Assembly: GCA_001823105.1 (NCBI GenBank)
Contig: MHTO01000004.1
Coordinates: 1 to 36,508 of the forward strand
From: Candidatus Wildermuthbacteria bacterium GWA2_46_15
GTDB lineage: Bacteria; Patescibacteriota; Minisyncoccia; Minisyncoccales; GWA2-46-15
DNA: 36,508 bases
Reading direction: 5' to 3'
Positions 9,458-35,220 of the stretch are shown piece by piece. Under the pieces are notes generated by a model that worked only from the letters and a program-made list of their open reading frames with translations, did no database searches and was not told where the DNA came from. Position 1 is the first letter of the stretch. Each line of letters begins with the position of its first letter. Made by a program: the position numbers and the translations under genes.

Positions 9458-9517
9458 TAATTTTCTCCTATAAAACTACTAAAGAACCCGGCCGCATGAT
9501 GACATAGGCGGCACTGA

Positions 9518-16080: not shown

Positions 16081-16166
16081 TTGTATATGCCTTAATGGTC
16101 TACTCACACAGCAGCGCGCGATTTTAATATTATCTATTATCCAGACAGAACTTTAAATTCTTTGCT

Positions 16167-19100: not shown

Positions 19101-19865
19101 GGCTATATAGTTGCGGGCAAAACTATCTTCTGAACCGAAAGGATTTGGATGGCCCCTAGCCACAGAGAGCAAGTCTATAAGCGAATAAAGATCCCAGAGA
19201 CGATTCTGTATCGGGGTAGCAGTTAGCATAAGAACATACTTAAAAGTCCTTGCTGCCAGCGACTGCCTGATTCGGGTAGCCCATTCCGGAGATGAGTTGC
19301 CGCCGTAAAGGTTCCGAAGCTTATGCGCCTCATCCAAGATAAGCATATGGAAACCGGCTGCCTCCAACTGATCCATATATCTGCGCACCGAATGGTAAGT
19401 AGTTATCAGGGCGCCCTTCTCCGCTTTCTGCAATTTATTGGCAGCGGTAACTAGTTTGGAACCTACTTCAAGTTCAGAATCAATTCCGAATTTAGTTTTC
19501 AGCTCTTCCTGCCATTGCGGCATCAGCAGTTTGGGACATACAATCAGGACTTTGGACACACGTGAACGGTAAATCAGTTCGCTAAGTATAAGCCCGGCAC
19601 TTATGGTCTTGCCAAGTCCGACATCATCTGCCAGCAGGGTGACCGGTAGTCTTCGGCAAAAAGTTATCAGGTTCTGCACCTGGTGCTTGTAAGGTGTAAC
19701 CAGGTCTACCCACTTTGGCTTGGATTTAAAGTCAGCTTCCCCTTCAAGCACAATGGGATCTAGGAGATCCCACTCCAGGGCGGCCTTATGCAAAGCGTAA
19801 GCCTCTGCGCTAGGCGCAAGCTTAAGGAAGGGAGCCTGTAAGGGCTGAACAATAATGTTCGGCAT
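16167..19865 (-). CDS. SNF2-family helicase/translocase with a C-terminal extension of about 650 aa carrying a 15-residue repeat array
   Basis: Motifs seen: LLADDVGLGKT (I), LILDEAHKLRN (II), MLTATPIQNRLWDLYSLIDLL (III), GAEGVNLQVANVLLNYDLPWNPMVVEQRVGRIQRLGS (V/VI). Confidence 0.9.
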   Translation of the reverse strand: MPNIIVQPLQAPFLKLAPSAEAYALHKAALEWDLLDPIVLEGEADFKSKPKWVDLVTPYKHQVQNLITFCRRLPVTLLADDVGLGKTISAGLILSELIYRSRVSKVLIVCPKLLMPQWQEELKTKFGIDSELEVGSKLVTAANKLQKAEKGALITTYHSVRRYMDQLEAAGFHMLILDEAHKLRNLYGGNSSPEWATRIRQSLAARTFKYVLMLTATPIQNRLWDLYSLIDLLSVARGHPNPFGSEDSFARNYIADSHTSARQLKTHRKTEFRSIVYNYMSRVRRGDAQLTFPERIVRSHKVLPTESELKLFKLIAAPIQQLNGLAQVSIAKALVSSPQALASQLNNMAAKGTFPQDVADKVSVVVREMGITAKLSGLDSLLAQLRAERPRDWRLVIFTELRETQNAIGEYLDRLQVPCAFINGDSSIRNQDAIARFKTDPPRVNVIISTAAGAEGVNLQVANVLLNYDLPWNPMVVEQRVGRIQRLGSNHQNVIIFNAILQGTFEEKIVGRLMEKLQLASHAIGDIESLLEAAGLEEGEKESKFEDMLRRLVLASLAGKDVEKETELKAASIAQAKEELKREEKNINSLLGSMDSNQAQGPRAPKFSSQEKSMSAKDFVFNAFKQAGVVYREENPGVYVMSQLFRQNRFVFDEKGAAGLIHPPTIYTPGRPEFENLVSKHAKENECFVQGINAEIRVEARAACGGWVASFGGRFETARDTAVSNKFSGEAVLRVRVSMAHDSYEKLMELSCPVVDGVAQAAARELVNIAPQSLGIDLPALASEAAKDPDIVEFCRFYMERLSEELRSAAGDERRIKKLTEDFTPRLQPDLAGLKGSVKQVIQFETQFRLGDSPLYNCDMSIDNETGAVLSAPPLEVYGEGGARAPSTCFQACAVSGKRALRHLLIKSEDTAKYALPEHIVQCALTGKRVLSTEVATSDLSGRAVLISAMKISPINHKRGEPSYFGVCSFTGSDVLNTELEVSQVSGKSFRNDEAAVSAISLTRGHRNEFIRCQHTGKWLLPDEAERCDITGELVAPGILRQCEVTNKQVVPQLVGECAITHKRALLELLVTGSVSKVPMLKTKAVMSCLGNYCLPKEALSCAWSGRIYHPEDMGQCALTGLPVLRSYLFGQNPSLKALIDLLSKPSSELKVAIDTAPVLAALTSVIGAGNYTVVGVTKAPESDSAAIIVDSKKIFGLVKRRHGFVYSVNEGKILGKVTTGKLSNGVWVRNI
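16488..17201 (-). repeat. Protein-level 15-residue periodic [C/S]xx[T/S]G repeat array in the SNF2 C-terminal extension
   Basis: The array holds CAVSGKRAL, CALTGKRVL, DLSGRAVL, CSFTGSDVL, SQVSGKSF, CQHTGKWLL, CDITGELV, CEVTNKQV, CAITHKRAL, CAWSGRIY and CALTGLPVL. The Gly positions are spaced 15 or 30 residues apart over about 240 aa. Confidence 0.7.
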
Positions 19866-22900: not shown

Positions 22901-25126
22901 TCGGCTTTCGCCCTCTGAAATCCCAAGACTTTTCAGTTTGATTTTAGCCTCTTGTATAGAATTAACAAGAGGTTTAGCTTGCAGCACATTAGTAAGGTTT
23001 TCATTGCGCTCCAAAAAACCTTCTCTCTCAAGCCAGGCGATCGCTGTACGCACCTTTGTATCTGCATTTGCGTCGCCAGCTTGAAAATTTACCTCAACAT
23101 CTTCATCTCTTAACAACTCCCCGGTAGTAATAACAATCTCGTCAGTATGGCGCTGTATTGCCGCTTTTCTCAGACCGCGCAAAATCTGTGCTATATCCCT
23201 TCTGCTAAGTTCGGAAAGCGCGCTAAGCCGGAACTGCTGTTCGCAATCTTCTTCGTTGTAGAGCAGAATACAGTCGGCCTCCTCCTGATCCCGACCTGCA
23301 CGCCCGGCTTCTTGCAAATAGTTTTCAAGCGAAGCCGGTGTATCTCCATGTATGACAAGGCGAATATCTTGTTTATCTACGCCCATGCCGAAGGCATTTG
23401 TGGCACATATTACTTGAATGTCTCCAGCAAGGAACAAGTCTTGAACTTCTTTTTTCTCCGACACAGTAAGCCCGGCATGGAAATGACGAGCACGCCACCC
23501 TTGCTTTGAAAGGAACCTAGCCGTATCCTCTGTGTCTGCACGTTTAGCGCGAAAAACAACAGCATAAGCCTTAGCATCCTTCCCAAGGCGCTCTCCAAGC
23601 AAATCATTTATTCTAGGAAGCTTGATCATTGCAGGGACCATCTGCACTTCAAATTTAAGGTTGGTGCGTTCAACTCCTCCCTCAAAAAGAGACATCTCTG
23701 TCCCAGTTTCGTTTTTAAAGTAAGCTTGAACGTCTTCAATGACATCCTTCTTGGCGGTAGCGGTAAAACAAGCTATTGGCGGCACAGGGCAATTCTGCTC
23801 CATGGCTATTTTCTTTATGACCCGCCCTGAATAAAGATAATCGGGGCGGAAATCGTGCCCCCATTTAGAAAGACAATGTGCCTCATCCACTACCCAGCAG
23901 CCGATTTCCCGTGACAGAAGCGCTTTGTACACCGCTCGGCTACGCAACTGTTCAGGGGAAAGATAAAGCAGTGCAATGGAACCGGATCTGATGCTCTTCA
24001 GCACATCTGCCCTTTCAGGCAGAGTTAGTATGCCGCAAAGCGCGGCACAGTTATGAAGACCTTGGCGCTGTAGACTGTCCACCTGGTCCTTCATTAAAGC
24101 CTGCAACGGGGAAATAACAACTGTCAGGTAGCCTCTTCTTGCATTCCGGACAAGTGCCGGCAATTGAAAGCCCAAGGATTTGCCACCACCTGTGGGCATT
24201 ATAGCCAGCAAAGACTCTCCGCGCATGCCAGCATTAACAATTTCTAATTGCAGGCTATTACCATTTGTATGTTTAGGTTCATCACGAAACTTATCAAAGC
24301 CAAAATACTGCTTAAGTTGCTCCCCAGAATTATGGGCTTTGGTGCAATAAGAACAAAGAGGATCCGAGCAGGGGACATCTCTTAATTCGCTTAAAAAAGA
24401 GGTTATTGTAGGATAATGCAGCCTAACCCAAGGCTGCAGCACTGAGTCTGTGCGGGAAATGCTAAGCAACCGTACTGAATAAGCCATAAGCCAGCGGGAG
24501 TTTTCTGTGGCTATGTTTGCGTAAGCCACCTTCTTGGCTGCGGTTTTACAAGAGAACTCGCCAAGAATGCTTTGGATACTCTCAATAATATCTTTCGGGA
24601 GTTTAACCGTAGGTGCCGCTTCGTCTAAGACCGCGTGCATCCCCTTAGAAAGCAAAGACTCTTCTTTCGGGTTACAAATCAATTCTTTTAATACGGCATA
24701 CAACTCGGGAGATGTTGATGCCAGTTCACGCAACTTAGATATTTCGTCTATTAAGAGCTTTTGTGCCTGTTTGCAATCCGAAACAGGATCATTCATGGCA
24801 GCTGGAACCAGCTTATAGTCTTTTATAAGATGGTGATATGGATTAGCAGGGAAGCAGAGAGGCGACAGTAAGAGGGTATCAATAATAGGCAGCCTTAGAA
24901 TCTTTGCTTCCGGAAAAGACTGTTTAATCATTCCTAAGTCATGCTTTAAAATATTATGTCCCGATACAAACTGTGCCCCGGCAGCAAAAGCATCAAGTTG
25001 GCGCAAAGCCTCTGCTTGATTAAATTTACCAGAGCAAAAGAATGTCTTTTCACCTATGACAGCACCAATCTTAAATATTTTGCCGGTTTGGTTAGTCTCA
25101 AGGTCTAGAAATAGAATGTTTTGCAT
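19913..25126 (-). CDS. Triple-fusion nucleic-acid enzyme: DnaQ/DEDD-like exonuclease + RecQ-family helicase + UvrD/PcrA-family helicase (1737 aa)
   Basis: Exonuclease: FLDLETN, SGHNILKHDL, IIDTLLLS. RecQ: MPTGGGKS, VVDEAHCLSKWGHDFRPDY, CFTATA, ATNAFGMGVDKQDIRLVIH, QEAGRAGRD. UvrD: LAGPGSGKT, LVDEYQD, AVGDDDQGIYGFRG, ENYRSS, VHAAKGKEF, FYVGMTRAQ. Confidence 0.85.
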   Translation of the reverse strand: MQNILFLDLETNQTGKIFKIGAVIGEKTFFCSGKFNQAEALRQLDAFAAGAQFVSGHNILKHDLGMIKQSFPEAKILRLPIIDTLLLSPLCFPANPYHHLIKDYKLVPAAMNDPVSDCKQAQKLLIDEISKLRELASTSPELYAVLKELICNPKEESLLSKGMHAVLDEAAPTVKLPKDIIESIQSILGEFSCKTAAKKVAYANIATENSRWLMAYSVRLLSISRTDSVLQPWVRLHYPTITSFLSELRDVPCSDPLCSYCTKAHNSGEQLKQYFGFDKFRDEPKHTNGNSLQLEIVNAGMRGESLLAIMPTGGGKSLGFQLPALVRNARRGYLTVVISPLQALMKDQVDSLQRQGLHNCAALCGILTLPERADVLKSIRSGSIALLYLSPEQLRSRAVYKALLSREIGCWVVDEAHCLSKWGHDFRPDYLYSGRVIKKIAMEQNCPVPPIACFTATAKKDVIEDVQAYFKNETGTEMSLFEGGVERTNLKFEVQMVPAMIKLPRINDLLGERLGKDAKAYAVVFRAKRADTEDTARFLSKQGWRARHFHAGLTVSEKKEVQDLFLAGDIQVICATNAFGMGVDKQDIRLVIHGDTPASLENYLQEAGRAGRDQEEADCILLYNEEDCEQQFRLSALSELSRRDIAQILRGLRKAAIQRHTDEIVITTGELLRDEDVEVNFQAGDANADTKVRTAIAWLEREGFLERNENLTNVLQAKPLVNSIQEAKIKLKSLGISEGESRLWLAILQYIFSTPANDSIRIDDLAGLPEFAAYAKISKDDFPQEFVRDRGGCEYLSSKVFKTLDAMVGAGVLQKSTLLSAYLRYKIEDSSIKRAERIAVLNREIVKTLGEYDPDPNGYVPLDLKKLNQELRNRDFDCSLPLLRQLMKSFKADSHIFNAHEGEITLRSTGRDIYRVKITGGWGKVTENINNKLRVAEVVLAKLLACAPEKAQAARDLLVEFTYEDLVQVAQKDPDLKQAVKDWNAAIEQALLFLHEQQVIVLQKGLSIFRTAMTIKVLPEGQGKQYSAENYERVHHHYKERVFQVHVMNEYANLGISRIQDALHLVLAYFIMSKESFVAKFFAKQKALLEMATTANSYDKIVEKLENRAQEQIVTAPTTKPMLILAGPGSGKTRAVVHRCAYLLRIKRVKAQSILICCFTHKAAIEIRRRLTDLVGADARGVTVQTYHALALRILGLSVADMMEEARKAENFFENMISDVVEVLNGTKTVAGLEADEVRDRLLAGFEHILVDEYQDIDEKQYAMISAIAGRKLKDSESDRKLSILAVGDDDQGIYGFRGSNVKFIKQFQIDYGADVKELIENYRSSGNIIDASNTLIEHNKDRMKKDRPIRINKFRSMQSPGGQFGDIDALTKGKVSVVKVNDILGQAEAAIKEAVRLKSLGIERWDSIAILARNHVDLSYIRSRAEALSVPVSWPIDGKKMPPLHRIREIRRALDTLSIDENLIANADEFAAMLGLEQKQPDGNIWFRLLSDLLDDWRAETQNEKTPVKLFVDFIYESLHQLRKDESVGEGVVLSTVHAAKGKEFPHVLLCGDWGYDINRDTPIEEQRRVFYVGMTRAQNSLAIFDRQDTKNIFSPELKGECFIYRAETSAIDGDTPRRDYSLLGLGDLFIDYAGRLEPGGPFHGALANLKTGDKLTAIQSGDKVGLIDSNKVQVALLSKLVSAQWMPQLEYIESIRVLGMVQRYKTDSDKPEFTEKLQVDQWEVPFCEIVTRLQK

Positions 25127-25145: not shown

Positions 25146-26606
25146 CTAACTCATTGGTCTTTGAAAAACATCAGAAAGTGCATTAACAACTTCTCCGGCA
25201 TCTGATGACATTGGGACTGAAACTATAACTATTTCAACTACTCTTGAGCCTGAGTTTACACAAGTGCGCACAACAACCTGGTTCCGTTCTAGCAGGGACT
25301 GAAAAGTCTCCATTCGGCATGGATAAACAAGGCATGCCACAACCCTAGGCGTATCAAACAAAGAAGAGTAGGCAACTACCTGTAAAAGATCCTTACGGTG
25401 GCGCTCCCGAATTTCCTCTTCAACATTGCCCCAACCACAAGACTGGATCTCTTCAGCATGCGCTTTATATTTAGCATCCAGAACCATTGTAACGTCGCCA
25501 CGTTCCAGCACAACGTCTGGGATGAAGGCCTTCTGGGAGCCAGAATAGGAAGGTTTCCAATCTAAACTCACCTTTGTTTGACCCAGGCGACCAACTCGCA
25601 AAGAAGCCCCACATTTTTTAGATACCAATTCACCTATTGTTTCAACCCAGGCCTCGAAAAACGATTCCATATCCATCTGCCAAGACAAACCAGCCAGCTC
25701 ATTTAAGCCAGCTAGGCCCCGTTCTTCTATAGTCCACTCTATAGCCTGCAGACCATCCTTAACATCCTTAGGAAGCAAGGCTCGACTTTGCCACGTTTTG
25801 ATCTGCCGCACATTCGGACGCCGTGGCGTATTACTGTTAACACGTGCTATTAGCTCATTGCATAGAGCCAGCAGTTTCAAAACAACAACCCCAGCAGTCC
25901 GCTGCGCCAGCAGTGAGGATGAATGCTCTTTTAATACGAAGTGTATAGCAGCCCTTAAATCGAAATCATCCCTAAGATCAGGGAAGGTGCATGGCACCGA
26001 CAAGTGCTTAGCGTGGGGTATCTTACGAATGATGTAGGAATCCCAATCAACCGCACCTTTTGGCATAGAAACATCTTCTTCTATAACGGTAAACTTCCTG
26101 GACAACTTATCCAGCATGCCCTTAATTCTTAAAAGGACAATAGAAGACAAAACCCAAGGCGGTATTTTCCTGTCAGATTGTGGGAGCTCAGCGTAAGGCA
26201 GCAACTTAGGCACTACACGGAACCCTGTAGCAGTCAAAACCTCACCAATAGACGTCCAGGCAAAACGTGGCTCTATAATAAGCCCCAGGTCATATTTACC
26301 CGTTGCTGGGGACACTAATGGTAAAGCACCTATTCTGCTTGAGCTGTGAAAGGAAAGGAACGCCTTGCTGTCACGTCGCACCACATCAGAAGATATGTGG
26401 AACTCACGCAGTATATTACTGTTCGTCTTAAGAAGAGCCTCAGCTTGCCGTTCAGCATGCGATTCTTGATCCCGTACTGCAGACCCACCAAACCAGTTCT
26501 TAGCCTCAATCAGCGCGTGACTTGTGTCGAAAATACGCTGACATCGCCCTATAGAGCGAGTAGGCATGGGCCGCCTGGCCGTAATTATTGGTCTGCGTGG
26601 GGGCAT
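25146..26606 (-). CDS. mcrC: McrC-like PD-(D/E)xK nuclease subunit of a McrBC-type restriction system
   Basis: FIPDVVLERGDVTMVLDAKYK is the McrC catalytic D...D-x-K signature. There is an N-terminal RIGALPL...LGLIIEPRF block. The gene starts 4 nt after the mcrB stop. Confidence 0.8.
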   Translation of the reverse strand: MPPRRPIITARRPMPTRSIGRCQRIFDTSHALIEAKNWFGGSAVRDQESHAERQAEALLKTNSNILREFHISSDVVRRDSKAFLSFHSSSRIGALPLVSPATGKYDLGLIIEPRFAWTSIGEVLTATGFRVVPKLLPYAELPQSDRKIPPWVLSSIVLLRIKGMLDKLSRKFTVIEEDVSMPKGAVDWDSYIIRKIPHAKHLSVPCTFPDLRDDFDLRAAIHFVLKEHSSSLLAQRTAGVVVLKLLALCNELIARVNSNTPRRPNVRQIKTWQSRALLPKDVKDGLQAIEWTIEERGLAGLNELAGLSWQMDMESFFEAWVETIGELVSKKCGASLRVGRLGQTKVSLDWKPSYSGSQKAFIPDVVLERGDVTMVLDAKYKAHAEEIQSCGWGNVEEEIRERHRKDLLQVVAYSSLFDTPRVVACLVYPCRMETFQSLLERNQVVVRTCVNSGSRVVEIVIVSVPMSSDAGEVVNALSDVFQRPMS

Positions 26607-26610
26607 AAGG

Positions 26611-28068
26611 TTATTCTGTTAGATCAAGCCATTCAATATATGCGCGTATTGAATCCGAAAAGCCAGAAACGTAACCCTGAAGCAAATACTCATTCAGCAA
26701 AGGCTTAAGCCCAGCATTAAGGATGCTTTTAGTGTTACTACCCCCATCTAGGAAGTATGCATGCCCAGGCATAAGTGAAAATGCCTCATTCGTGGCCTCT
26801 TCCATAAATATAAAGAATAATCTCTGGAAAGCATCCTTCATCCGCTGACTAGCGCCCATACTTTGTAAAACATTTACATCTGGCCATAAGGAGATGAATG
26901 AAAACCTGCGCCTAACCGCTATATCCAGAATTGCAATACTTCTATCCGCACTATTCATGGTCCCAAGTATATGCAAATTGCCTGGCAGCTTAACCTTTTT
27001 GTCAAAAGGGACCCCGAAATCATGAAAGACTTTAATCTCACGGTCCGGCTCTGTCGGCTCAAAGAGGAATATCGCCTCTCCGAGCACTTTTGCCAGGTCT
27101 GCACGGTTAATCTCATCTATATGCAACAAATAATTTTTATCTGGATTTTTAGAGGCTTCTGCGGCCGCGTCCATCAGATGTCCCCGCCGAGGAGTGAACT
27201 GCAGTCCAGTATTGTTCGCGCCCTGTGAAGGAGCTAAGCCACCAATAAAAGTTTCATAGGTGGTCCCAGGGTGGAATTGGATGCTGGCGCCTTTCCCTTC
27301 ATAAGGTCCTGTAATTAACTTCTCGGCTAATCTTGTTTTGCCGGTACCAGGAGGGCCCTCAATAATAACAAAGCGCCTCAAATTCAAGAGTGCAGACACT
27401 TCTGCTTCTGTCGTATTCGGCATTGCTTTAGATACCCACTCATCCGTAGCGGCTTTTTTCTCCGGCTGGAATGGGGTAAGTGGCTCAAGGCCACGCTCTT
27501 CTGCAAATACATCACAGAAGGTATGGGCTCCCTTTTCAATTAAAGACAACGCCGCTGGATCATCAGAAATAAACATCGCGTATAAAACCTTTTCATATTT
27601 ATCAGTCGCTGTTTTATAGTTATTTAGCCGACCAGAAACATACTTAGGCATGCCCAGATCAATGCGGACCGGGTCCGGCTTAGCCCATGTAATATCTTTT
27701 CTAGCTAGATGGCTTAACCACCTGGAAATAGCCAGAACCTTCCTTGCATGGCCAGGCCGGCTTAATGCCTGCTCGTCAGGACTTAGTCCATTAGTGCCAA
27801 TTCCCAGGCAAATAAGCGCCGGGGCATCTTTGGAAGGGAATATAACAAAACTCATCCCGCCATATGGGCCACTTTTAGGTTGGCCAGCGGGGATAAATGC
27901 CGCGAATGGTGCAGCATCTTCATTCGTTTCCCCATTTACGCGTATTTGAATCTTTTTATCCCATTTCGCCCCATATCGTTCCCGTGCAAATCTCTCAAGA
28001 TCTGCTTTTGCAGAATCTGCCCAGGACCCATCCAATCTTTTAACAATCAATTCAGATAATGCCGACAT
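26611..28068 (-). CDS. mcrB: McrB-like GTP-specific AAA+ motor subunit with an unassigned N-terminal (presumed DNA-reader) domain of about 225 aa
   Basis: Motifs seen: FVIIEGPPGTGKT, IQFHPGTTYETFIGG, LLHIDEINRADLAKVLGEAIFLFE, ILGTMNSADRSIAILDIAVRRRFSF. GGAGG RBS 7 nt upstream of the ATG. Confidence 0.9.
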   Translation of the reverse strand: MSALSELIVKRLDGSWADSAKADLERFARERYGAKWDKKIQIRVNGETNEDAAPFAAFIPAGQPKSGPYGGMSFVIFPSKDAPALICLGIGTNGLSPDEQALSRPGHARKVLAISRWLSHLARKDITWAKPDPVRIDLGMPKYVSGRLNNYKTATDKYEKVLYAMFISDDPAALSLIEKGAHTFCDVFAEERGLEPLTPFQPEKKAATDEWVSKAMPNTTEAEVSALLNLRRFVIIEGPPGTGKTRLAEKLITGPYEGKGASIQFHPGTTYETFIGGLAPSQGANNTGLQFTPRRGHLMDAAAEASKNPDKNYLLHIDEINRADLAKVLGEAIFLFEPTEPDREIKVFHDFGVPFDKKVKLPGNLHILGTMNSADRSIAILDIAVRRRFSFISLWPDVNVLQSMGASQRMKDAFQRLFFIFMEEATNEAFSLMPGHAYFLDGGSNTKSILNAGLKPLLNEYLLQGYVSGFSDSIRAYIEWLDLTE

Positions 28069-28140: not shown

Positions 28141-30411
28141 TTATGGCAGAATTCTGGGCGGGGTTAAATCCATCTCCCACCCGTATTCTTTGGTATCTTC
28201 AATCGACTTTGGTGAAGGAAAGCCCTCACTCTCTGCGATTGCCTGAACAAATGCCCCAAGTTGCTTCTCCCCTAGTATAAAATCCTTATATGCTTGCCTT
28301 TGCTTTGCATATCTCCATATCCTATCATCATAGCCCCCAGGGTACTTAAGTAGCTCCATAGTTATATCAGTGCCTTTAACAAGGTCTCGGTAAATACGGC
28401 CGGTCCGTTGCTCAATAACAGTGGGATTCCAATGCAGGTCATGGTGAATTACGTTGCTGCAAGCTTTTTGCATATCCAGACCTTCCCCGCCAATCTGACT
28501 CACAAGCAGAATATGTGGTGGGACCCCTGTGGAGTTGAAGGCCTCTAAAACCCTAGTCCTCCGCGCCCTGGAGCTTTCACCTGTAAATTTCTCGACTATT
28601 CCATATTGTCTAAAAGGTAATCTCCCTATTAGCTTATTATACTTAGGAGTGTTTTCTGGCTTACTAATGAAACCGCGAAGCCTGGCGCGCATCTGCCTTA
28701 CAGAAATTCTTTCCCCACCTTCTCGAGTAAAGTCTTCAGAGATTCTCTTTAATACTTCCTTCCAGTGTTTGATTAAATCTGGGTAGCCACTTCCTCTAAA
28801 CCGCATGATTCCACGAACAAGTGCGTCATGTATGCATACTCTTTCTTCGAATTCCAATCCCTCGCAATCTTTAACAAACATTTCTTCTAAAGACTGCAAG
28901 TTTATCCCAGCGTCATTAAGTATGCGTTGTGCCTTTCTCCACACCTTATTGTTTTTGATAGGCTTTTTTTTGCCCGCTAATAGGGGCTTCCCTTCAAATT
29001 CACAAACAATTCCATTTCTTTTTTCCAATAAGGTTTTCTGTGCTTTCGCTATAGTCGACAAGTGATTAAAGAAAACAACTACCTTCTGTGATTGCTTCCC
29101 ATTGCCCAACAATAAGCATCTAACTCTTTCAATCAAGACGCGCACCTTGGCGTGCGTCCAACCTGAAAACAATTCATCCACTTTTCCTTCCTTCAGATTA
29201 AATCTTTTAATTATCTTTTTATGAGGATGCGCCTGGGCAGCCTGGAACTTGCCCCGATGCAACGCAGCATGTGCCGAGCAAAGCCTGCTATAACCATTTG
29301 GGAGAAATTTCCCACCGGGAGGCGGCTCATCATCAAACTGCCCATACTTTGCATGGGCATTTTGCCGGAGGTAGGCACGCCCAAAGAGATATAAAGCTGT
29401 ATCTGCTGCCTCAAGCTTAAACGATGGAGTATGCTCCTCAACTTTTGGTTTGGTATTTCTTATTACCAGAGCGCGCAAATACTCATCAAGACCATCCTGC
29501 GCACGGTGCCCAACTTCAACGCCAAAAGTGCGGCCAGTGGGATCTAATGGCGCGTCAAAGTTTATATCAATGCAATTCAGGAGTTCTTTAAACTCTTGTT
29601 TTATAGTGCGGGGATCCCCGTCTTTAATCAATTTATCTAATTCCGTATCAAGAAGCTTAAGGCTATATTTGATTGCGTTAACAATAGAGGGCTGAAGAGG
29701 CATTTTCCCGCCTGCTTTAAGGTCTGAGATAAGTTCAAAATCAGGCTCATATTTTAAGTCTAGGAAATGCAATAAATGAATAAGCTCCTGCCGACTATCA
29801 CACTGGAATGGCGTCGCAGATAAAAAAAGGAAAGGGCAGGTTTTTTTATTGTCACGTATACGCTGAAGGGCCCTGGAAAGTTGTGTGGAACATTTACGTG
29901 CCTTGTGGGCCTCGTCCAACACAAGCAAATCTAGTTTTGAAACCCATCCTGGCAATTTGCCTCTTGTAAGCTTTCCCGCTTTACTTGTAGGAAACAAGCG
30001 TATACTTGATTTTTCCCCATCTGCAGCTCGCCCCATGGCTTTTAAAACCTTTTTAAGGGGTGTATTACCTTTAATGCCGGGCATTGCTGCCTTACAGAAT
30101 AAACGAATTTCTTCTTGCCATTTCTGAATAAGGCCTGGGGGAAGAAGAAATGCGGCGCGGCGGCCTGTTGTGTGGCTAGCAAGATAAAGCGCTGCCGTTG
30201 CCAAAGCCTCCCATGTTTTCCCCATTCCAACTTCGTCCGCCAGTAAAGCTCCGGCTCGCCCCGACATTAGCCGGGGGCCCTCCCCTTTAAGGGCCTGCAA
30301 TGCGGCCGCCACAGCCCGACCTTGATGCGGTCGAAGAACAGTCTTCCCTTTCTTGGGAAAAGCCCAAAAAGAAGGTCCACCCCACCGTAATGGCTTTTGC
30401 CGGCGGCTCAT
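28141..30411 (-). CDS. SNF2-like SF2 helicase (756 aa from the coupled ATG)
   Basis: Motifs seen: LLADEVGMGKT (I), LLVLDEAHKARK (II), FLSATPFQ (III), GGEGLDMQKACSNVIHHDLHWNPTVIEQRTGRIYR (V/VI). The ATG at 30411 overlaps the PLD gene TGA stop (ATGA). The longer track ORF is an upstream in-frame extension. Confidence 0.8.
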   Translation of the reverse strand: MSRRQKPLRWGGPSFWAFPKKGKTVLRPHQGRAVAAALQALKGEGPRLMSGRAGALLADEVGMGKTWEALATAALYLASHTTGRRAAFLLPPGLIQKWQEEIRLFCKAAMPGIKGNTPLKKVLKAMGRAADGEKSSIRLFPTSKAGKLTRGKLPGWVSKLDLLVLDEAHKARKCSTQLSRALQRIRDNKKTCPFLFLSATPFQCDSRQELIHLLHFLDLKYEPDFELISDLKAGGKMPLQPSIVNAIKYSLKLLDTELDKLIKDGDPRTIKQEFKELLNCIDINFDAPLDPTGRTFGVEVGHRAQDGLDEYLRALVIRNTKPKVEEHTPSFKLEAADTALYLFGRAYLRQNAHAKYGQFDDEPPPGGKFLPNGYSRLCSAHAALHRGKFQAAQAHPHKKIIKRFNLKEGKVDELFSGWTHAKVRVLIERVRCLLLGNGKQSQKVVVFFNHLSTIAKAQKTLLEKRNGIVCEFEGKPLLAGKKKPIKNNKVWRKAQRILNDAGINLQSLEEMFVKDCEGLEFEERVCIHDALVRGIMRFRGSGYPDLIKHWKEVLKRISEDFTREGGERISVRQMRARLRGFISKPENTPKYNKLIGRLPFRQYGIVEKFTGESSRARRTRVLEAFNSTGVPPHILLVSQIGGEGLDMQKACSNVIHHDLHWNPTVIEQRTGRIYRDLVKGTDITMELLKYPGGYDDRIWRYAKQRQAYKDFILGEKQLGAFVQAIAESEGFPSPKSIEDTKEYGWEMDLTPPRILP

Positions 30412-32252
30412 GAGTGCCTCCTTTTCATGACTTTTTCTTTTATTCTGGGGACATATTCTGTTTGACCTTCTATCCACATTCCGCTTTGGGCCCATCGCCC
30501 TAGCTGTTTTATAATGCGGGAATCTTTTTTAAAAATATCGCCACGCCAAGCGGAAAAGCCTTTCCTAATCTGCCTAAAGATATTCGGCTCATTCTCTCCA
30601 ATCTTATCTGAGTTGCTTTGTACAGCAAGTAGCCGAGTAGCTAGAAACAAATAGCAGCCCGTGCGCACTTTCTCCGGTATTACATCAGAGAGACAATCTA
30701 AATGCATCTTTTCTCGCCATAATTCTTCCAGTAATCCCATATGAGAGGGGTAAGGGTTTTTAAGATCTTCACCAATAGCCTTGCAAACACTTAAGGATCG
30801 CCGCTCATACTCATCTAACTCAGCGTAAACGCCTCCCTCCTGTGAGACGCCATCCCCCGGCTTCCCCCCAGGCCTAGGTTTTTGATGGACACCAGTCCCT
30901 AAATTAGGATTTCCTCCCCATAAAGACTCCGCGCCCTCTGGTTCAGGATCAATAGTTTCAAGTAAGGTCAACTGGCCTTTTAATCCACCCCAGACAACTG
31001 TCACACGCGCCTCATTTCTTAAAGCAGCTTCTACTTTTCCTCTTTGGTTTTCTGGCAATTGATACAGCCCTGGCCCTTTCTTTGTGGAATAGCTGTTAAG
31101 ATTAAACCGCTTTTTATTAATTTCCAGAAAAGGAAGCATGGCAGGAAGCTCCGCAGAGGACTGCGCCCAAATCTCAACGGTTCCACTTGCCGGCATGTAC
31201 CAGGCAATGAGTCCCTCTGTTTCTATCTCAACCTCTCCATCTTCCGGCTTATCCCAGGTCAGGGTATCGTCTGATGGAAGCTTTTGCGTAGGGACTGAAT
31301 AGTAGAATTCTCTAAATCCTTTTTTTGATACTGGGAGAGCAATCATACATTCAGCACGATGCCGGGATAAGCTTCCGGCTTTCTTGAAAAGCCCTGGCTC
31401 AGTAGCATTGGCAGAGCCGGTAACAAGAAGCCCCCCTCCGTTAAAACACTCAAAGGCTAAGACCTTAGAATGAGGAAACTGTGAAACCAACTTACCCTTG
31501 GCTATATAAAGACGGTCTTTCCATTTTTTCATCCCCTGAAGGATCCGCTTTGATTTATGCTCCATTGCAGGAACAACTATTTTAATCTGACTGCGAGAAA
31601 GTGAAAACTTATCAACCAAGCCGTCCACCGCCACGCTAGAAAGATATGGAGAGAAAACCGTAAGACTTTTGACTGGTTTCCCCTTAAGCAACCTTTTGAT
31701 TCCATCTGCTATGGATTCATTATCATTATCTAACCACCGGGGCTCATCCTGCCCGGGGCGGTTATGCAAGCCAGCCTCAAGTTGGCTAAGTCTTTTTATC
31801 CAGGTAGGATCCACATGCCAAGGGAGTTTGGCAAAACGGTTTTTAAGCCACCTAACTGCACCTAAAACCAAATGCTGCGAGGGTTGCGCAATTAGACTGA
31901 ATATCTCAAGATTATCCCCACCGAAACCAGGTGCTGTTAAGTTTGCACTGGAAACAGAAAGGGCGACTCCGGTTGTTCCACGGGAAAGCACTATTTTCCC
32001 ATGTATTCCATTAGAAGGATCCGCAAAGACCGTTCTAAAGCTTTTATTCTGAGACACTTTATGTCGGGCGCCTGTTTTATCACTAAGTATAAGAAGCTGC
32101 CCCAGATTAAGATCTTCGCTTCTAACTAAGTCATCAATATGGTTTTCATTAAACTCATAAGTGGTTGCGATGGACCATTTTGCCCCACCAATTTCTTCGG
32201 CAGCTTTTGAAATAGCGTCAACTGGATCTTTGAATAAGTGATTAGCAGGCAT
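30408..32252 (-). CDS. Phospholipase D-superfamily nuclease with two HKD motifs and a C-terminal region of about 300 aa with no recognised motif
   Basis: HKD-1 is IHGKIVLSRGTTGVALSVSSANLT (31941-32003). HKD-2 is PHSKVLAFECFNGGGLLVTGSANAT (31407-31472). GGAGAA RBS. Confidence 0.8.
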   Translation of the reverse strand: MPANHLFKDPVDAISKAAEEIGGAKWSIATTYEFNENHIDDLVRSEDLNLGQLLILSDKTGARHKVSQNKSFRTVFADPSNGIHGKIVLSRGTTGVALSVSSANLTAPGFGGDNLEIFSLIAQPSQHLVLGAVRWLKNRFAKLPWHVDPTWIKRLSQLEAGLHNRPGQDEPRWLDNDNESIADGIKRLLKGKPVKSLTVFSPYLSSVAVDGLVDKFSLSRSQIKIVVPAMEHKSKRILQGMKKWKDRLYIAKGKLVSQFPHSKVLAFECFNGGGLLVTGSANATEPGLFKKAGSLSRHRAECMIALPVSKKGFREFYYSVPTQKLPSDDTLTWDKPEDGEVEIETEGLIAWYMPASGTVEIWAQSSAELPAMLPFLEINKKRFNLNSYSTKKGPGLYQLPENQRGKVEAALRNEARVTVVWGGLKGQLTLLETIDPEPEGAESLWGGNPNLGTGVHQKPRPGGKPGDGVSQEGGVYAELDEYERRSLSVCKAIGEDLKNPYPSHMGLLEELWREKMHLDCLSDVIPEKVRTGCYLFLATRLLAVQSNSDKIGENEPNIFRQIRKGFSAWRGDIFKKDSRIIKQLGRWAQSGMWIEGQTEYVPRIKEKVMKRRHS

Positions 32253-33501
32253 TTCTGTTCTCCAGTGAAACCTTTAGGTCTCTCCCAAAGCGCCATGCTT
32301 GCTGAAGACGCAATGACCCAGCATAATTGCCAGAAAAACTATTAAAAAGATCCTTATCACCTACTACCATCGAGCTGCCATAGCCGGAAACATAACCTTT
32401 CCCAGCTTTACGGGCACATTCTTTAGCATATTCAGTCAGATCTTCTCGGGAATTAATTCCAGAAAGAAGTTGTGCAAGTTTTAGTGGTGTACCACTATCA
32501 GCGCAATGACCATCCACCTCTATTAGGGCCGCTTTGTCGTCAGGCTGATTTTGCAGCAAGCCCTTAACTCTTTGTATTAACTTATATGGGTCTATCTGAT
32601 GAAGATGATTGGGCTTAGTCGGGACATCTTCTTTTAATTTATGAAAAGCCCAATCATATAATGACCGCGTTGCCGCAAACACCAAAGCGCGCCCTAATGC
32701 AGCACGATATAATCTTCTCTTGGTGTGCTGCGCGGGCTGCGGGTGTTTGTATAAGAAATCGTGGGTCCATGTGTCAGGGCTAGGAAGATGTGAGGCTGCA
32801 GCTACTGAAAACAGAGTGTCCTTTAAATAGCCGGAGTGGAGATTGTGCCCTAAACCGCTTTTAGGGAGAGGCTGGTTTGCTAAACAAGCAGCCAATTCCC
32901 TAAATAAATGTAGCCGGCTGCCATCCAGGGATAAGACTTTATTTATGCGACTTTCTCGTAAAAGACTAGGTGTATTGCCCCTGGCTATCTTTGTTAAGGT
33001 TGCGCGCGTGTTTTGGAAACCAGAAAGGTATTTTTCAGGGGCCCTTGCTTTTATTTTTTCGGGCAAAGAATCCCACAGCCGTGCGTAGCGTTCCCGCGGT
33101 CCAAGTACAACCAGGCTTGAGATCCCGGTTTCCCAGCCGGCTGGCTTAGGTTTTTTTATAGGCAATCCGGCAAGAGTCCTAAGACCATAAAGCACAAACT
33201 TCTTTTTCAACCGGGCGGGGTAATTCGCCCAAGCATGCTGCCATACAAGCCTAGTATAAGCAGAATCTTCATCTTTTCCAGCTACACTTTTTGAGAAAGA
33301 CTCAGCCCACCCATGAAACACAAGATACATTAGGTGGTCTGTCTGTGAGGTCAGGCCCGGGCCAGAAGAATTTGAAGAGCGAAAAAGATCATCAGCCATT
33401 GAGTCAAGAATTACTTGAGCCCGTAGAGGGTCCCTACGACCTTCATCATCGTTTTGAAGCTCATGTTCAGTTGACCAAAAAATCGGCAAATATTCTTTCA
33501 T
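32242..33501 (-). CDS. Hypothetical protein (419 aa), first large gene of the PLD/SNF2-like operon
   Basis: AAGGGGA RBS. Its 3' end overlaps the PLD gene start by 11 nt. I recognise no catalytic motif. The N-terminus has a conserved-looking block RDPLRAQVILDSMADDLF...GPGLTSQTDHLMYLVFHGW. Confidence 0.6.
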   Translation of the reverse strand: MKEYLPIFWSTEHELQNDDEGRRDPLRAQVILDSMADDLFRSSNSSGPGLTSQTDHLMYLVFHGWAESFSKSVAGKDEDSAYTRLVWQHAWANYPARLKKKFVLYGLRTLAGLPIKKPKPAGWETGISSLVVLGPRERYARLWDSLPEKIKARAPEKYLSGFQNTRATLTKIARGNTPSLLRESRINKVLSLDGSRLHLFRELAACLANQPLPKSGLGHNLHSGYLKDTLFSVAAASHLPSPDTWTHDFLYKHPQPAQHTKRRLYRAALGRALVFAATRSLYDWAFHKLKEDVPTKPNHLHQIDPYKLIQRVKGLLQNQPDDKAALIEVDGHCADSGTPLKLAQLLSGINSREDLTEYAKECARKAGKGYVSGYGSSMVVGDKDLFNSFSGNYAGSLRLQQAWRFGRDLKVSLENRNAC

Positions 33502-33520
33502 GCGTCCCCTTGCTGCACTT

Positions 33521-33976
33521 CTATTTAGCTGCCCCGAGAAAATCCGGTAATTTATCTATTTTAATACGCGCTAACTCTGCGGGTTTCTCTTTCCCCAGGG
33601 CGGCCAGATTTAGATACCCCTTATACCGCGTATCTGGAGATACCTGAATTAAAGATGCCGTTTCTTTTGTTATAAAGAAAATCCCTGGTTTTTTAGTTGC
33701 ATATGTGACTGCGAGGATTAATATATAGTTATCTCTAAAATCGCTAGGACACAGCAATTTATTAAAATCTGAACCATAACTGTCACGTATTGTTTTAATT
33801 TGAATATCAAAATACTTAAGCCGGCCATCTTCCGCAAAACGCAGTATCGCATCTATGCCCTGATCATCTGCTATCGTTAGATATAGGTCGAACCCTGACT
33901 TCATCAAATCAAATATCACCTCCATTTCACTGATTTTCCCTTTACGAGCAGTTTCCATTTCTTCCCATTTCAACAT
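33521..33976 (-). CDS. Small PD-(D/E)xK-fold (restriction endonuclease / Hjc / DUF4365-like) protein
   Basis: KISEMEVIFDLMKSGFDLYL..DDQGIDAILRF..KYFDIQIKT matches the E...D-GID...Q-x-K layout. The gene ends 19 nt upstream of the 419-aa gene. Confidence 0.5.
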   Translation of the reverse strand: MLKWEEMETARKGKISEMEVIFDLMKSGFDLYLTIADDQGIDAILRFAEDGRLKYFDIQIKTIRDSYGSDFNKLLCPSDFRDNYILILAVTYATKKPGIFFITKETASLIQVSPDTRYKGYLNLAALGKEKPAELARIKIDKLPDFLGAAK

Positions 33977-34076: not shown

Positions 34077-34742
34077 TCACCTTCTAATATCTAAAGGGAC
34101 ATATGCATCTGTATTAATATACTCTGAGTTTATACATATCATCCGTGACCCCTCGCGTGGGTCGAACCTTATAGGCCCACTACCTTGTGGCTTAAACACT
34201 ACAAGCAAGGCCTGCATATCAACCTGAATTTTATCGCCATAGAATTCAGTCGCCCTATGAAAAAAATCTTTTAAGATAGAAAACAACACGGTGCCCTGCC
34301 TCAAAGGATTTTGCAACCCTAATGCCCGTGTAATTTCTTCTAGATATCCTTCTATTCCTTCTCCCCTATGTTGCGCCCACACATTAAGGAGTCTAGTTAA
34401 AACGTTAACTCGTACAATTTCCTGATTGTGATTTAGAGAGATCCTTCTATTTCTGGCGGGGCCTTTAATTTCATCTGAATGATCCCATTTGCTTTCACCG
34501 ACAATCCAATAGCCTTTTTGTTTATCCTTGGTTTTAGCGAATATTATAAAGTCCGGCTCACCAACCTGAGCCCTCCCAAAACTTGGACGGTAAAATGTTA
34601 CAGTTGTACCTTTTCCTAATGTAATAGGCGAAGGCAGAACTAGCTCTCTTTGTAACTGATTAGATAGCCGACTAAGCTTAGTCGGTGATATTAGATATGA
34701 AAGCGTTAACGCATCTTCCCCGTAACCAATTACCTCTGCCAT
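34077..34742 (-). CDS. Hypothetical protein with a PD-x(n)-E-x-K nuclease-like motif
   Basis: VGEPDFIIFAKTKDKQKGYWIVGESKWDH gives a PD...ESK pattern. GGGGGA RBS. Confidence 0.4.
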   Translation of the reverse strand: MAEVIGYGEDALTLSYLISPTKLSRLSNQLQRELVLPSPITLGKGTTVTFYRPSFGRAQVGEPDFIIFAKTKDKQKGYWIVGESKWDHSDEIKGPARNRRISLNHNQEIVRVNVLTRLLNVWAQHRGEGIEGYLEEITRALGLQNPLRQGTVLFSILKDFFHRATEFYGDKIQVDMQALLVVFKPQGSGPIRFDPREGSRMICINSEYINTDAYVPLDIRR

Positions 34743-34791
34743 CGTCTATCCCCCTAATAATTCCGATAAACCTTATCTAACCCAAATCCAG

Positions 34792-35220
34792 TCACAACAA
34801 ATGTGTCGATTTAAAATTATTGATATCCGGCCGAAGCAAGTTTTTAAAGGCTTTGCGGTTATTAGGGCCTTTCTGTGCCTGGCCCCGCCATTTCTTCATT
34901 AGATTGCGCCATGGGCTTGTAGGTGTTAATGCTTGAAAACAATCCCTTGGCAAATGACCCTTCAAATCATTTAAGGCATAACAAACCAGCTGAAAATGTA
35001 TCCTGCTACCGGGAGAAATATGATCTACCGCCGCATAAAGGGGATGACAGCCCTTCCCCCCTTGTACGGGAGTACCTTTCTTCTTATCGAAAACCATTTT
35101 CACCTGGGATAAGGCACAGCGCCCCTTCTGCCGTATCACCAGAGTGCGTAGGGCACTGGGAGGCAGTCCTTGTTTCTTTTTAGACGCCCATGCCTTTTGT
35201 GTCCTGCTCAGCTTATACAC
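34792..35220 (-). CDS. HNH endonuclease domain protein
   Basis: GRCALS...HPLYAAVDHISPGS...LVCYALNDLKGH fits the Cys...DH...N...N-x-x-K-G HNH layout. GGAGG lies 5 nt upstream of the GTG start. Confidence 0.7.
   Translation of the reverse strand: MYKLSRTQKAWASKKKQGLPPSALRTLVIRQKGRCALSQVKMVFDKKKGTPVQGGKGCHPLYAAVDHISPGSRIHFQLVCYALNDLKGHLPRDCFQALTPTSPWRNLMKKWRGQAQKGPNNRKAFKNLLRPDINNFKSTHLL

What the first reader, a model, noticed from the sequence alone, without database searches (positions are those of the whole stretch)
28141..33976. Translationally coupled operon: small PD-(D/E)xK protein, unknown 419-aa protein, long two-HKD PLD nuclease, SNF2-like helicase
Seen in sequence: the 151-aa nuclease-fold gene ends 19 nt before the 419-aa gene. 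The 419-aa gene overlaps the PLD gene by 11 nt. The PLD stop and the helicase start share ATGA (30408-30411). Established: PLD nuclease plus SF2 helicase is the core of SauUSI-type type IV restriction (fused there). It also occurs as DrmC/DrmD in DISARM, and I recall the Azaca system as helicase + PLD + an unknown protein. Inference: no methyltransferase and no DUF1998 protein are present here. The PLD protein is 614 aa with an unassigned C-terminal half of 300 aa. The 419-aa partner has no motif I recognise. The module is therefore either a divergent member of one of those systems or a new split helicase-PLD system.
Basis: partly seen in the sequence, partly recalled or inferred. Interest (0 to 1): 0.75.

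Follow-up and report, generated by a model that had tools for sequence, protein, structure and literature searches.

The report
Rare Azaca-like PLD nuclease–SNF2 helicase cassette
Three tightly coupled genes (an unknown all-helical protein, a phospholipase-D-type nuclease and an SNF2 motor) form a rare, very divergent relative of the known Azaca anti-phage system. The small nuclease-like gene in front of them is only a neighbour.

Summary

The conserved unit has three genes, not four:
- A: 419 aa.
- B: 614 aa, a two-HKD PLD nuclease.
- C: 756 aa, an SNF2 ATPase.

Every relative of A with downstream DNA is followed by B, and by C where the contig reaches far enough. This held in about ten lineages at 30-60% identity and 43-64% GC. 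Only IS-truncated copies lack them. None of these loci carries the 151-aa gene or the McrBC-like genes.

The family is rare. It has 11 representatives among 1.84 billion protein clusters and none in 185,579 species genomes.

A matches no Pfam, PADLOC or NCBIfam model. Its confident all-helical model has no fold match in PDB or BFVD.

Profile comparison links A, B and C, in the same order, to a much larger A-B-C superfamily. Members of that superfamily weakly match the Azaca (ZacA/B/C) and PDC-M27 models. DISARM, SauUSI and Mokosh membership tests fail.

Most likely this is a compact, unrecognised branch of Azaca-like defence: a three-protein complex in which an ATP-driven SNF2 motor licenses PLD cleavage of foreign DNA. 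I rate it a new variant of a known kind, of moderate interest.

The parts
32242..33501 (-). Gene A: 419-aa all-alpha subunit, the founding member of a rare family. Conserved motifs: FW..H....DDEG.RDPLR (residues 8-27), TDHLxYLxFHGWA (54-66) and AGSLRLxQAWRFGRDL (394-409).
   Evidence: No Pfam, PADLOC or NCBIfam hit, even at E<=10. Only 11 representatives among 1.84e9 clusters. AF2 model has pLDDT 77 and pTM 0.79 and is all helices. No fold match in PDB or BFVD. hhalign to the gene-A family of the large A-B-C superfamily gives E 4.6e-8 (global) and 2.4e-4 (local), while controls give E >= 0.06.
30408..32252 (-). Gene B: 614-aa single-chain two-HKD PLD-family nuclease. After the PLD region come a beta-rich middle region, a Gly/Pro-rich linker and a helical C-terminal domain.
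   Evidence: Pfam PLDc_2 at E 3.3e-7. PADLOC ZacB at E 8.3e-9, partial, and PDC-M27B at E 1.1e-3. hhalign to superfamily B proteins gives probability 99.6%, E 1.1e-23, over residues 22-390. The C-terminal tail is only colinear, E 0.16. The AF2 model is unusable, pLDDT 40.
31941..32003 (-). First HKD core of B (H84-G-K86 ... S102-A-N104).
   Evidence: Invariant in four family members.
31407..31472 (-). Second HKD core of B (H261-S-K263 ... G279-S-A-N282).
   Evidence: Invariant in four family members.
28141..30411 (-). Gene C: 756-aa SNF2-family ATPase. It has a long insertion (about residues 220-600) between the two RecA lobes.
   Evidence: Pfam SNF2-rel_dom, Helicase_C and ResIII. PADLOC DrmD 6e-24, ZacC 1.6e-22, PDC-M27C 2.4e-16, all partial. 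NCBIfam DrmD scores 103 bits against a cut-off of 610. PDB relatives are Rad54, INO80 and RapA.
30214..30237 (-). Walker A / motif I of C (DEVGMGKT, residues 59-66).
   Evidence: Invariant in the family alignment.
29905..29916 (-). Walker B / motif II of C (DEAH, residues 166-169).
28387..28410 (-). Motif VI of C (QRTGRIYR, residues 668-675).
33521..33976 (-). Adjacent 151-aa PD-(D/E)xK-like gene. It is probably co-transcribed here but is NOT part of the conserved cassette.
   Evidence: Weak Pfam hits to PD-(D/E)xK clan families. Absent from all other cassette loci. Its only detected relative is stand-alone in a Dissulfurispiraceae MAG.

Best explanation
Window 28141-33501 (minus strand) encodes a three-gene nuclease-helicase cassette that acts against phages and mobile elements. 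It is a rare, compact and strongly diverged branch of the Azaca / PDC-M27 kind of system.

Proposed mechanism, by analogy with Azaca and inferred rather than shown here:
- A, B and C are made in fixed proportion from overlapping genes and assemble into one complex.
- The SNF2 subunit C binds and translocates on double-stranded DNA using ATP.
- This licenses subunit B to cut DNA. B's two HKD halves fold into one PLD active site, which cuts through a metal-independent phosphohistidine intermediate.
- Subunit A is an all-helical protein. Its most conserved N-terminal segment is predicted disordered on its own. A probably acts as the obligatory scaffold or specificity subunit.
- No methyltransferase belongs to the unit. 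Self/non-self discrimination is therefore most likely modification-dependent or cue-dependent (type IV-like), not protection by methylation.

The upstream 151-aa PD-(D/E)xK-like gene and the downstream McrBC-like pair are independent neighbours in a large defence island.
For: Shown here:
1. Junctions and motifs are intact.
2. A-B-C synteny is strict. All relatives of A with downstream sequence are followed by B, and by C where the contig reaches: L004/L005/L100, a JGI contig with genes of 414, 585 and 732 aa, L014, L015, L016, L099, L101-L105 and L108-L110. These span 28-63% identity and 43-64% GC, mostly with 4-17-nt overlaps.
3. The surroundings differ from locus to locus and are defence or mobile-element genes: type I R-M, GmrSD, McrBC, a HerA-like ATPase by sequence reading, AddAB-like genes, an integrase, and type II R-M with Vsr.
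4. 80 distant SNF2 relatives in genomes of many phyla were fetched. In 75 of them a PLD ORF of mostly 620-840 aa matched the B profile, and in most of these a further ORF, typically about 430-450 aa, precedes it, often with 4-nt overlaps.
5. Component-wise homology to that superfamily: B at probability 99.6%, E 1e-23. C at 26-46% identity in the best segment, spanning roughly residues 50-740 in most loci. A at E 4.6e-8 global and 2.4e-4 local, against E >= 0.06 in reversed, shuffled and unrelated controls, with a shared N-terminal motif.
6. Superfamily members match the ZacB, ZacC and PDC-M27B/C models. Of 43 gene-A proteins, 6 match the PDC-M27A model and 2 match the ZacA model.

From the literature: Azaca consists of ZacA (DUF6361), ZacB (PLD) and ZacC (SF2 helicase). 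All three are needed to cleave T4 DNA in vitro. The PLD site and the ZacC Walker A motif are essential. Protection against T4 exceeds 10^6-fold (bioRxiv 10.1101/2025.07.10.664194).
Against: - No component reaches a full-length or curated-threshold match to Azaca, PDC-M27 or DISARM models.
- A and its eight relatives do not match DUF6361 or the ZacA model at all. The 43 superfamily gene-A proteins do not match Pfam DUF6361 either. The link to genuine ZacA is therefore indirect, in two steps, and rests on 2 of 43 weak model hits.
- No genuine ZacA sequence or structure was available for direct comparison.
- The local hhalign signal for A covers only about the first 110 residues.
- Nothing here demonstrates defence, complex formation or nuclease activity.
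- The B model was too poor (pLDDT 40) to check the active-site geometry.
Confidence: 0.6

Rival explanations
1. The unit is the four-gene operon the first reader proposed. The 151-aa PD-(D/E)xK protein would be a functional fourth subunit, for example a second nuclease.
For: Only a 19-nt gap separates it from gene A, and it is on the same strand. It has a weak PD-(D/E)xK signature. In two other loci the gene upstream of A also carries a PD-(D/E)xK-type domain: NERD-UvrD in L001 and AddA-like in L014.
Against: tblastn finds no 151-aa homologue in any other cassette locus. Upstream neighbours elsewhere are unrelated to it and to each other: an ion channel, a HerA-like ATPase, C5 methyltransferases and unknown proteins. 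Its one relative is stand-alone.
Confidence: 0.08
2. The cassette is the restriction half of a DISARM-like or R-M-like system that depends on a DNA methyltransferase for self-protection. Candidates are the type I HsdM next to the window, or a C5 methyltransferase as in the sister clade.
For: In the L016 sister clade, 8 of 8 loci with at least 1.5 kb of upstream DNA carry a same-strand C5-cytosine methyltransferase 0.25-4 kb upstream. Only 1 of 80 superfamily loci has one. DISARM also pairs a PLD protein and an SNF2 helicase with a methyltransferase. hsdM, hsdS and hsdR lie about 1.3 kb upstream of the 151-aa gene.
Against: Those methyltransferases are only 24-36% identical to one another, while the adjacent A proteins are 79-99% identical. 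Each methyltransferase is tightly coupled to its own different small ORF, and to Vsr in two loci, so they look like self-contained type II R-M modules. The window, L004/L005 and L014 have no C5 methyltransferase. No DUF1998 or DrmA gene is present. The DrmD model scores 103 bits against a cut-off of 610.
Confidence: 0.12
3. The cassette is part of a larger composite system with the downstream McrB-like GTPase, the McrC-like nuclease and the 1737-aa RecQ/UvrD fusion. All are co-oriented with short gaps.
For: There is only a 72-nt gap after the helicase stop, and a similar GGAGGCACT Shine-Dalgarno context precedes both C and the McrB-like gene. No convincing terminator lies between them. The block of genes is identical on several contigs.
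Against: Those contigs all come from one lineage, with 100%-identical PLD. None of the other cassette loci has McrB or McrC homologues. McrBC pairs are autonomous type IV systems by established knowledge.
Confidence: 0.07
4. The cassette is not a defence system. It could be a DNA repair, recombination or mobile-element maintenance module.
For: No experimental data exist for this family. SNF2 and PLD domains also occur in non-defence proteins. Some copies sit next to an integrase or IS elements.
Against: It is consistently embedded in variable defence islands. Its distribution is patchy across 43-64% GC. Copies decay through IS insertion. Its architecture is homologous to the experimentally validated Azaca system.
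Confidence: 0.08

Closest known systems
Azaca (ZacA-ZacB-ZacC; Millman et al. 2022; biochemistry in bioRxiv 10.1101/2025.07.10.664194)
   Same: Three genes in the order unknown protein, two-HKD PLD nuclease, SF2 helicase. They are tightly coupled and sit in defence islands with no methyltransferase. ZacB is the best PADLOC match of B (E 8e-9 for the window protein, 1e-10 for the L004 homologue). ZacC is among the top matches of C (E 1.6e-22). A is linked through an intermediate family to proteins that match the ZacA model.
   Different: A does not match DUF6361 or the ZacA model. The B match covers only the PLD cores, 73 of 586 profile positions in the best stretch. C has 756 aa against a ZacC model length of 1019, and it scores slightly better on DrmD. 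PADLOC-type rules would not call this locus Azaca.
PDC-M27 (PADLOC candidate system, genes A, B and C)
   Same: It has the same three-gene logic. PDC-M27B (E 1e-3 for the window protein, 2.7e-7 for L004) and PDC-M27C (E 2.4e-16) are hit. For the large superfamily that bridges to this cassette, PDC-M27C is the best model match of the helicases tested and PDC-M27A the most frequent match of gene A.
   Different: A gives no hit. The B and C matches are partial and weak. PDC-M27 itself is uncharacterised, and no paper mentioning it was found.
DISARM (DrmA, DrmB, DrmC with DrmD and DrmMI, or DrmE and DrmMII)
   Same: It combines a PLD protein and an SNF2 helicase. DrmD models are the top hit of C.
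   Different: There is no DrmA, no DUF1998 (DrmB) and no dedicated methyltransferase. DrmC models are about 150-270 positions long, whereas B has 614 aa with two HKD motifs. The DrmD equivalog score is 103 bits against a cut-off of 610.
SauUSI-type type IV restriction enzymes (fused PLD-helicase, PDB 7CLG)
   Same: PLD nuclease chemistry is coupled to an SF2 ATPase. 7CLG is the best PDB sequence match of the superfamily B profile. Both probably work without a methyltransferase.
   Different: SauUSI is a single polypeptide with one HKD per chain, which dimerises, and it has a C-terminal target-recognition domain. Here there are three separate proteins, two HKD motifs in one chain and an extra A subunit.

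Membership tests
Azaca | The ZacA subunit carries a DUF6361 domain or matches the ZacA model. | tested here: not met
   Pfam and PADLOC scans of the 419-aa protein and eight relatives at E<=10 gave no DUF6361 or ZacA hit.
Azaca | Remote homology of subunit A to ZacA-like proteins. | tested here: inconclusive
   hhalign to the gene-A family of the large A-B-C superfamily gives E 4.6e-8 global and 2.4e-4 local, against controls at E >= 0.06. Only 2 of 43 proteins of that family match the ZacA model and 6 of 43 match PDC-M27A. None match Pfam DUF6361. No genuine ZacA sequence was available.
Azaca | ZacB: a PLD-family nuclease matching the ZacB model. | tested here: inconclusive
   ZacB is the best PADLOC hit, but at E 8.3e-9 and with a best stretch covering profile positions 268-340 of 586. 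Both HKD cores are intact.
Azaca | ZacC: an SF2 helicase matching the ZacC model. | tested here: inconclusive
   ZacC scores E 1.6e-22, but only over profile positions 835-898 of 1019. DrmD scores higher.
Azaca | Gene order A-B-C as one tightly coupled operon without a methyltransferase. | tested here: met
   Overlaps of 11 nt and 4 nt in the window. The same order holds in all related loci.
Azaca | All three proteins and helicase ATPase activity are required for DNA cleavage and phage protection. | not testable with these tools
   This needs cloning and biochemistry.
DISARM | Core DrmA helicase plus DrmB (DUF1998). | tested here: not met
   No DUF1998 hit in any of the 23 window ORFs submitted to Pfam.
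DISARM | A dedicated methyltransferase (DrmMI or DrmMII) in the operon. | tested here: not met
   No methyltransferase lies within or next to the cassette in the window, L004/L005 or L014. The C5 methyltransferases of the sister clade do not co-evolve with the cassette.
DISARM | DrmD equivalog (NCBIfam NF038317 or NF038318). | tested here: not met
   103 bits against a cut-off of 610, and 84 bits against a cut-off of 950.
SauUSI-type type IV restriction | PLD, SF2 helicase and target-recognition domain fused in one polypeptide. | tested here: not met
   PLD and helicase are separate genes. The PADLOC PLD_Helicase and NCBIfam phospholipD_antiphage models match only the helicase part of C.
PDC-M27 | Matches to the PDC-M27A, B and C models. 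| tested here: not met
   A gives none. B scores E 1.1e-3. C scores E 2.4e-16, partial.
Mokosh | MkoA-type SF1/RNA helicase with a PLD nuclease. | tested here: not met
   C is SNF2 (SF2), and no Mko model hits A, B or C. MkoA hits only the Walker A region of the neighbouring McrB-like protein.

The most novel reading that the evidence does not exclude
Subunit A is a new, fold-level-unassigned sensor module that gives this clade a target specificity different from Azaca, for example recognition of another DNA hypermodification or a phage protein cue. A second possibility comes from the sister clade, where the cassette always sits next to ever-changing C5-cytosine methyltransferase modules. That pattern could reflect a real functional coupling: a minimal PLD/SNF2 restriction engine that reads or tolerates m5C patterns. 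Either case would make it a distinct defence system rather than a mere Azaca variant.
Probability: 0.15. Interest if true: 0.7.

Novelty: new variant of a known kind. Interest (0 to 1): 0.45.

Why it matters
Azaca is one of the strongest known defences against T-even phages, yet its mechanism and the role of ZacA are unresolved.

This work suggests that Azaca and PDC-M27 are the annotated tips of a much larger A-B-C superfamily (helical protein, two-HKD PLD nuclease, SNF2 helicase). That superfamily was found here in at least 75 species genomes of Acidobacteriota, Planctomycetota, Verrucomicrobiota, Myxococcota and other phyla. Current models barely detect it.

The window's cassette is a minimal, highly diverged member, with proteins of 419, 614 and 756 aa. 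Such a compact version is a good subject for structural work on how an SNF2 motor licenses a PLD nuclease. The few residues shared across the whole superfamily point to what is essential in the enigmatic A subunit: the N-terminal (E/D)G..DPL...AD.L..PG.T segment and the C-terminal R...W/F..DL segment.

In practice, defence-system annotation tools miss this locus.

Tried and rejected
- The word-index homologue searches with A, with B and with a B profile found almost nothing beyond self. They even missed the 56%-identical A protein of L004.
- Genome scans of 185,579 species with A and B patterns found no relatives. An IMG/VR scan found none either.
- PDB sequence searches with A, with B and with the gene-A superfamily profile found nothing.
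- Foldseek of the A model against PDB and BFVD gave only noise, with best E 0.45-0.54 and TM about 0.1.
- AF2 of B with a two-sequence alignment failed (pLDDT 40). No fold search of the B C-terminal half was therefore possible.
- hhalign of the B C-terminal 235 residues against the superfamily gave only a colinear, non-significant match, E 0.16.
- tblastn against plasmids was used to try to fetch an annotated Azaca locus with a 'DUF6361' neighbour. It returned only loci annotated as hypothetical proteins.
- The supplement of the Azaca biochemistry preprint is not held, so no genuine ZacA sequence could be obtained.
- The promoter and terminator scan was at chance level and did not define operon boundaries.
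- P0014, the nearest extra PLD hit, sits in an unrelated context on a conjugative element.
- I rejected the idea that a nuclease or helicase gene upstream of A is a conserved partner. The upstream proteins of different loci share no similarity with each other or with the 151-aa protein.
Full report
**Observation**

The region 28141-33976 carries four co-oriented minus-strand ORFs of 151, 419, 614 and 756 aa. I read all three junctions directly:
- A 19-nt spacer separates the 151-aa stop from the 419-aa ATG.
- The 419-aa gene and the PLD gene overlap by 11 nt.
- ATGA at 30411-30408 joins the PLD stop to the helicase start and is preceded by AGGAGG.

The mechanical ORF list extends the helicase to 30495. 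The MSRR start at 30411 is the one conserved in a 59%-identical homologue and the one gene callers chose on eight contigs. The PLD protein has two invariant H-x-K...S-x-N cores at residues 84-104 and 261-282. The helicase has intact SNF2 motifs I, II, III and VI.

**What the conserved unit is**

The 419-aa protein (A) has no Pfam, PADLOC or NCBIfam match, even at E<=10. An exhaustive HMMER scan of 1.84 billion cluster representatives found only 11 relatives.

Wherever DNA downstream of a relative is available, a homologue of the PLD protein (B) follows, and then a homologue of the SNF2 protein (C) where the contig reaches far enough:
- L004/L005/L100, at 56%, 49% and 59% identity for A, B and C.
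- A JGI contig with genes of 414, 585 and 732 aa near an integrase gene about 5 kb upstream.
- L014, L015, L016, L099, L101-L105 and L108-L110.

These loci range from 43 to 64% GC. Their flanks are completely different: type I R-M, GmrSD, a HerA-like ATPase, AddAB-like genes and type II R-M. Most keep 4-17-nt overlaps between the three genes.

The only copies without B and C are truncated by an ISL3-type transposase (L001/L002). L014 is decayed: its B gene is frameshifted and its C gene is truncated at an adjacent ISL3-type transposase gene.

tblastn with the 151-aa, 221-aa, 142-aa, McrB-like and McrC-like proteins found none of them in any other cassette locus. The single detectable relative of the 151-aa protein is a stand-alone gene in a Dissulfurispiraceae MAG.

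The unit is therefore A-B-C. The 151-aa PD-(D/E)xK-like gene is only weakly supported as such (Pfam E 0.018 and 0.17) and is a neighbour. So is the McrBC-like pair, which starts 72 nt downstream.

**Relation to known systems**

PADLOC gives only partial matches:
- B matches ZacB at E 8e-9, over the PLD core only, and PDC-M27B at E 1e-3.
- C matches DrmD at 6e-24, ZacC at 1.6e-22 and PDC-M27C at 2.4e-16.

NCBIfam's DrmD equivalog scores 103 bits against a cut-off of 610.

I scanned 185,579 species genomes with a helicase alignment and fetched 80 distant relatives of C, at 26-46% identity in the best segment and mostly spanning about residues 50-740. In 75 of them a PLD ORF of mostly 620-840 aa precedes the helicase and matches the B profile. 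In most of those a further ORF, typically about 430-450 aa, precedes the PLD gene, often with 4-nt overlaps. This is a large A-B-C superfamily.

Profile-profile comparison links each component:
- B: probability 99.6%, E 1.1e-23, over residues 22-390.
- A: E 4.6e-8 in global mode and 2.4e-4 in local mode. Reversed, column-shuffled and unrelated-family controls give E >= 0.06.
- The Brocadia-type gene-A proteins share a recognisable N-terminal motif with A: FWT..DLEND...RDPL....A..L..PGLT..T...YL.

In that superfamily, all seven B proteins tested match ZacB best (E 1e-12 to 1e-21), and all three C proteins tested match PDC-M27C best (about 1e-36 to 1e-39), with ZacC next or close behind. Of 43 gene-A proteins, 6 match PDC-M27A and 2 match ZacA. 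None match Pfam DUF6361.

According to the literature, Azaca is ZacA (DUF6361) + ZacB (PLD) + ZacC (SF2 helicase). All three are required to cut T4 DNA, the ZacC Walker A motif is essential, and protection against T4 exceeds 10^6-fold.

So the window's cassette is homologous in order to a superfamily that includes or borders Azaca and PDC-M27. It fails a strict membership test for either. It clearly fails the tests for DISARM (no DrmA, no DUF1998, no methyltransferase), SauUSI (not fused) and Mokosh.

**Structure**

AF2 of A with an 11-sequence alignment gives a confident all-helical model (pLDDT 77, pTM 0.79). It has a disordered basic loop at residues 97-133. Its N-terminus (1-21) is disordered yet holds part of the most conserved motif. 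From this I infer a partner-docking segment.

Foldseek finds no similar fold in PDB or BFVD. AF2 of B failed for lack of alignment depth.

**Mechanism**

This part is inferred. By analogy with Azaca and with SauUSI-type enzymes, the overlapping genes produce a ternary complex. The SNF2 motor's ATPase licenses the single-chain PLD pseudo-dimer to cleave foreign DNA. A acts as scaffold or specificity subunit. No methyltransferase belongs to the unit, so discrimination is probably modification-dependent or cue-dependent.

My confidence that this is a defence cassette is about 0.75. My confidence in the Azaca-like mechanism is about 0.6.

**Rivals**

- A four-gene unit including the 151-aa protein (0.08).
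- A methyltransferase-dependent, DISARM-like system (0.12).
- A composite system with McrBC and the 1737-aa helicase (0.07).
- A non-defence role (0.08).

The second rival draws on an unexpected finding. In the sister clade (L016, L101-L110), all 8 loci with enough upstream DNA carry a same-strand C5-cytosine methyltransferase. Only 1 of 80 superfamily loci has one. However, those methyltransferases are only 24-36% identical, while the adjacent A proteins are 79-99% identical. Each methyltransferase is coupled to its own small partner ORF, or to Vsr. This looks like swapping of type II R-M modules at a hot spot rather than a cognate methyltransferase.

**Verdict**

The feature is real.

It is a rare, compact, previously unrecognised variant of the Azaca/PDC-M27 kind of PLD-SNF2 three-gene system, embedded in a very large defence island.

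Interest is moderate (0.45). The architecture is known, but current models do not recognise this family. Its A subunit has no known fold match. The analysis also exposes a large, poorly annotated superfamily.

Noticed in passing
L101-L106, L108, L110 (for example L105:1902-2942, L108:5265-6563, L102:665-1987 with Vsr at L102:3148-3582): In the sister clade of the cassette, the A proteins are 79-99% identical. Every locus with enough upstream DNA (8 of 8) has a same-strand C5-cytosine DNA methyltransferase 0.25-4 kb upstream. These methyltransferases are only 24-36% identical to one another, and each is coupled to a different small ORF. Only 1 of 80 superfamily loci has one, and the window has none. 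This could be a hot spot for swapping type II m5C R-M modules, or a functional link.
   Followed up: partly
L018-L097 (80 genome loci): A large superfamily of three-gene cassettes occurs in Acidobacteriota, Planctomycetota, Verrucomicrobiota, Myxococcota, Actinomycetota and other phyla. Each has a helical protein of about 430-450 aa, a two-HKD PLD protein of about 700 aa and an SNF2 helicase of about 910-1200 aa. It only weakly matches the Azaca and PDC-M27 models. PGAP annotates the one example checked, on a Methylocystis plasmid (L112), as hypothetical proteins.
   Followed up: partly
window 25146-28068 (-): A McrBC-like pair starts 72 nt after the helicase. It consists of a 485-aa AAA_5 protein with an unassigned N-terminal domain of about 215 aa, and a 486-aa protein with a McrBC-family (PF10117) match. 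It is probably an independent type IV restriction system.
   Followed up: partly
window 19913-25126 (-): A 1737-aa giant protein fuses a RecQ-like DEAD/Helicase_C module with a UvrD/REP helicase, and its first ~260 residues are unassigned. It strongly matches the DpdF and PsyrT models (E 7e-102 and 1.5e-80) and also GajB models (E 1.6e-48). It starts 19 nt after the McrC-like gene.
   Followed up: no
window 11393-19865 (-): Three co-oriented genes may form another helicase-based defence module: an SNF2 protein of 1232 aa (16167-19865), a UvrD-like protein of 951 aa (13252-16107) and a Sel1-repeat protein of 529 aa (11393-12982).
   Followed up: no
window 4046-5932 (-); 8870-10201 (-); 10221-11291 (+); 1587-3236 (+): Further island content: a GmrSD type IV restriction enzyme, two small DnaB_C/KaiC-like ATPases next to a divergently transcribed WYL/HTH regulator, and a ClpB-like AAA_2 ATPase.
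   Followed up: no
window 34077-35220 (-): Two orphan ORFs lie between the type I hsdR gene and the 151-aa gene. One has 221 aa, with an 'EPDF...GESKW' pattern that may be PD-(D/E)xK-like by eye. The other has 142 aa, with an HNH-like 'AVDHISP...N' pattern by eye. Neither has any family hit. The 142-aa ORF is not called on one contig (L003/L011) and is called shorter on another (L008).
   Followed up: no
L001:4558-5082, L014:9521-10573, L014:6607-8492: Two copies of the cassette are decaying. In L001, ISL3-type transposase genes abut a truncated A gene. In L014 they abut a truncated C gene, and the PLD gene of L014 is also frameshifted.
   Followed up: partly
L004:14199-16703: L004 carries a second, N-terminally truncated copy of the SNF2 gene (58% identical to window C residues 121-756) after a partial SprT-like gene. 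This segment is absent from the otherwise syntenic L005.
   Followed up: no
L017 (Sphingobium plasmid pSF1, record 48380-57368): A different co-oriented four-gene block: an SNF2-related protein, two hypothetical proteins, and an 822-aa hypothetical protein with weak PLD similarity to B (24% identity, E 0.8). It may be another uncharacterised SNF2-PLD arrangement.
   Followed up: no
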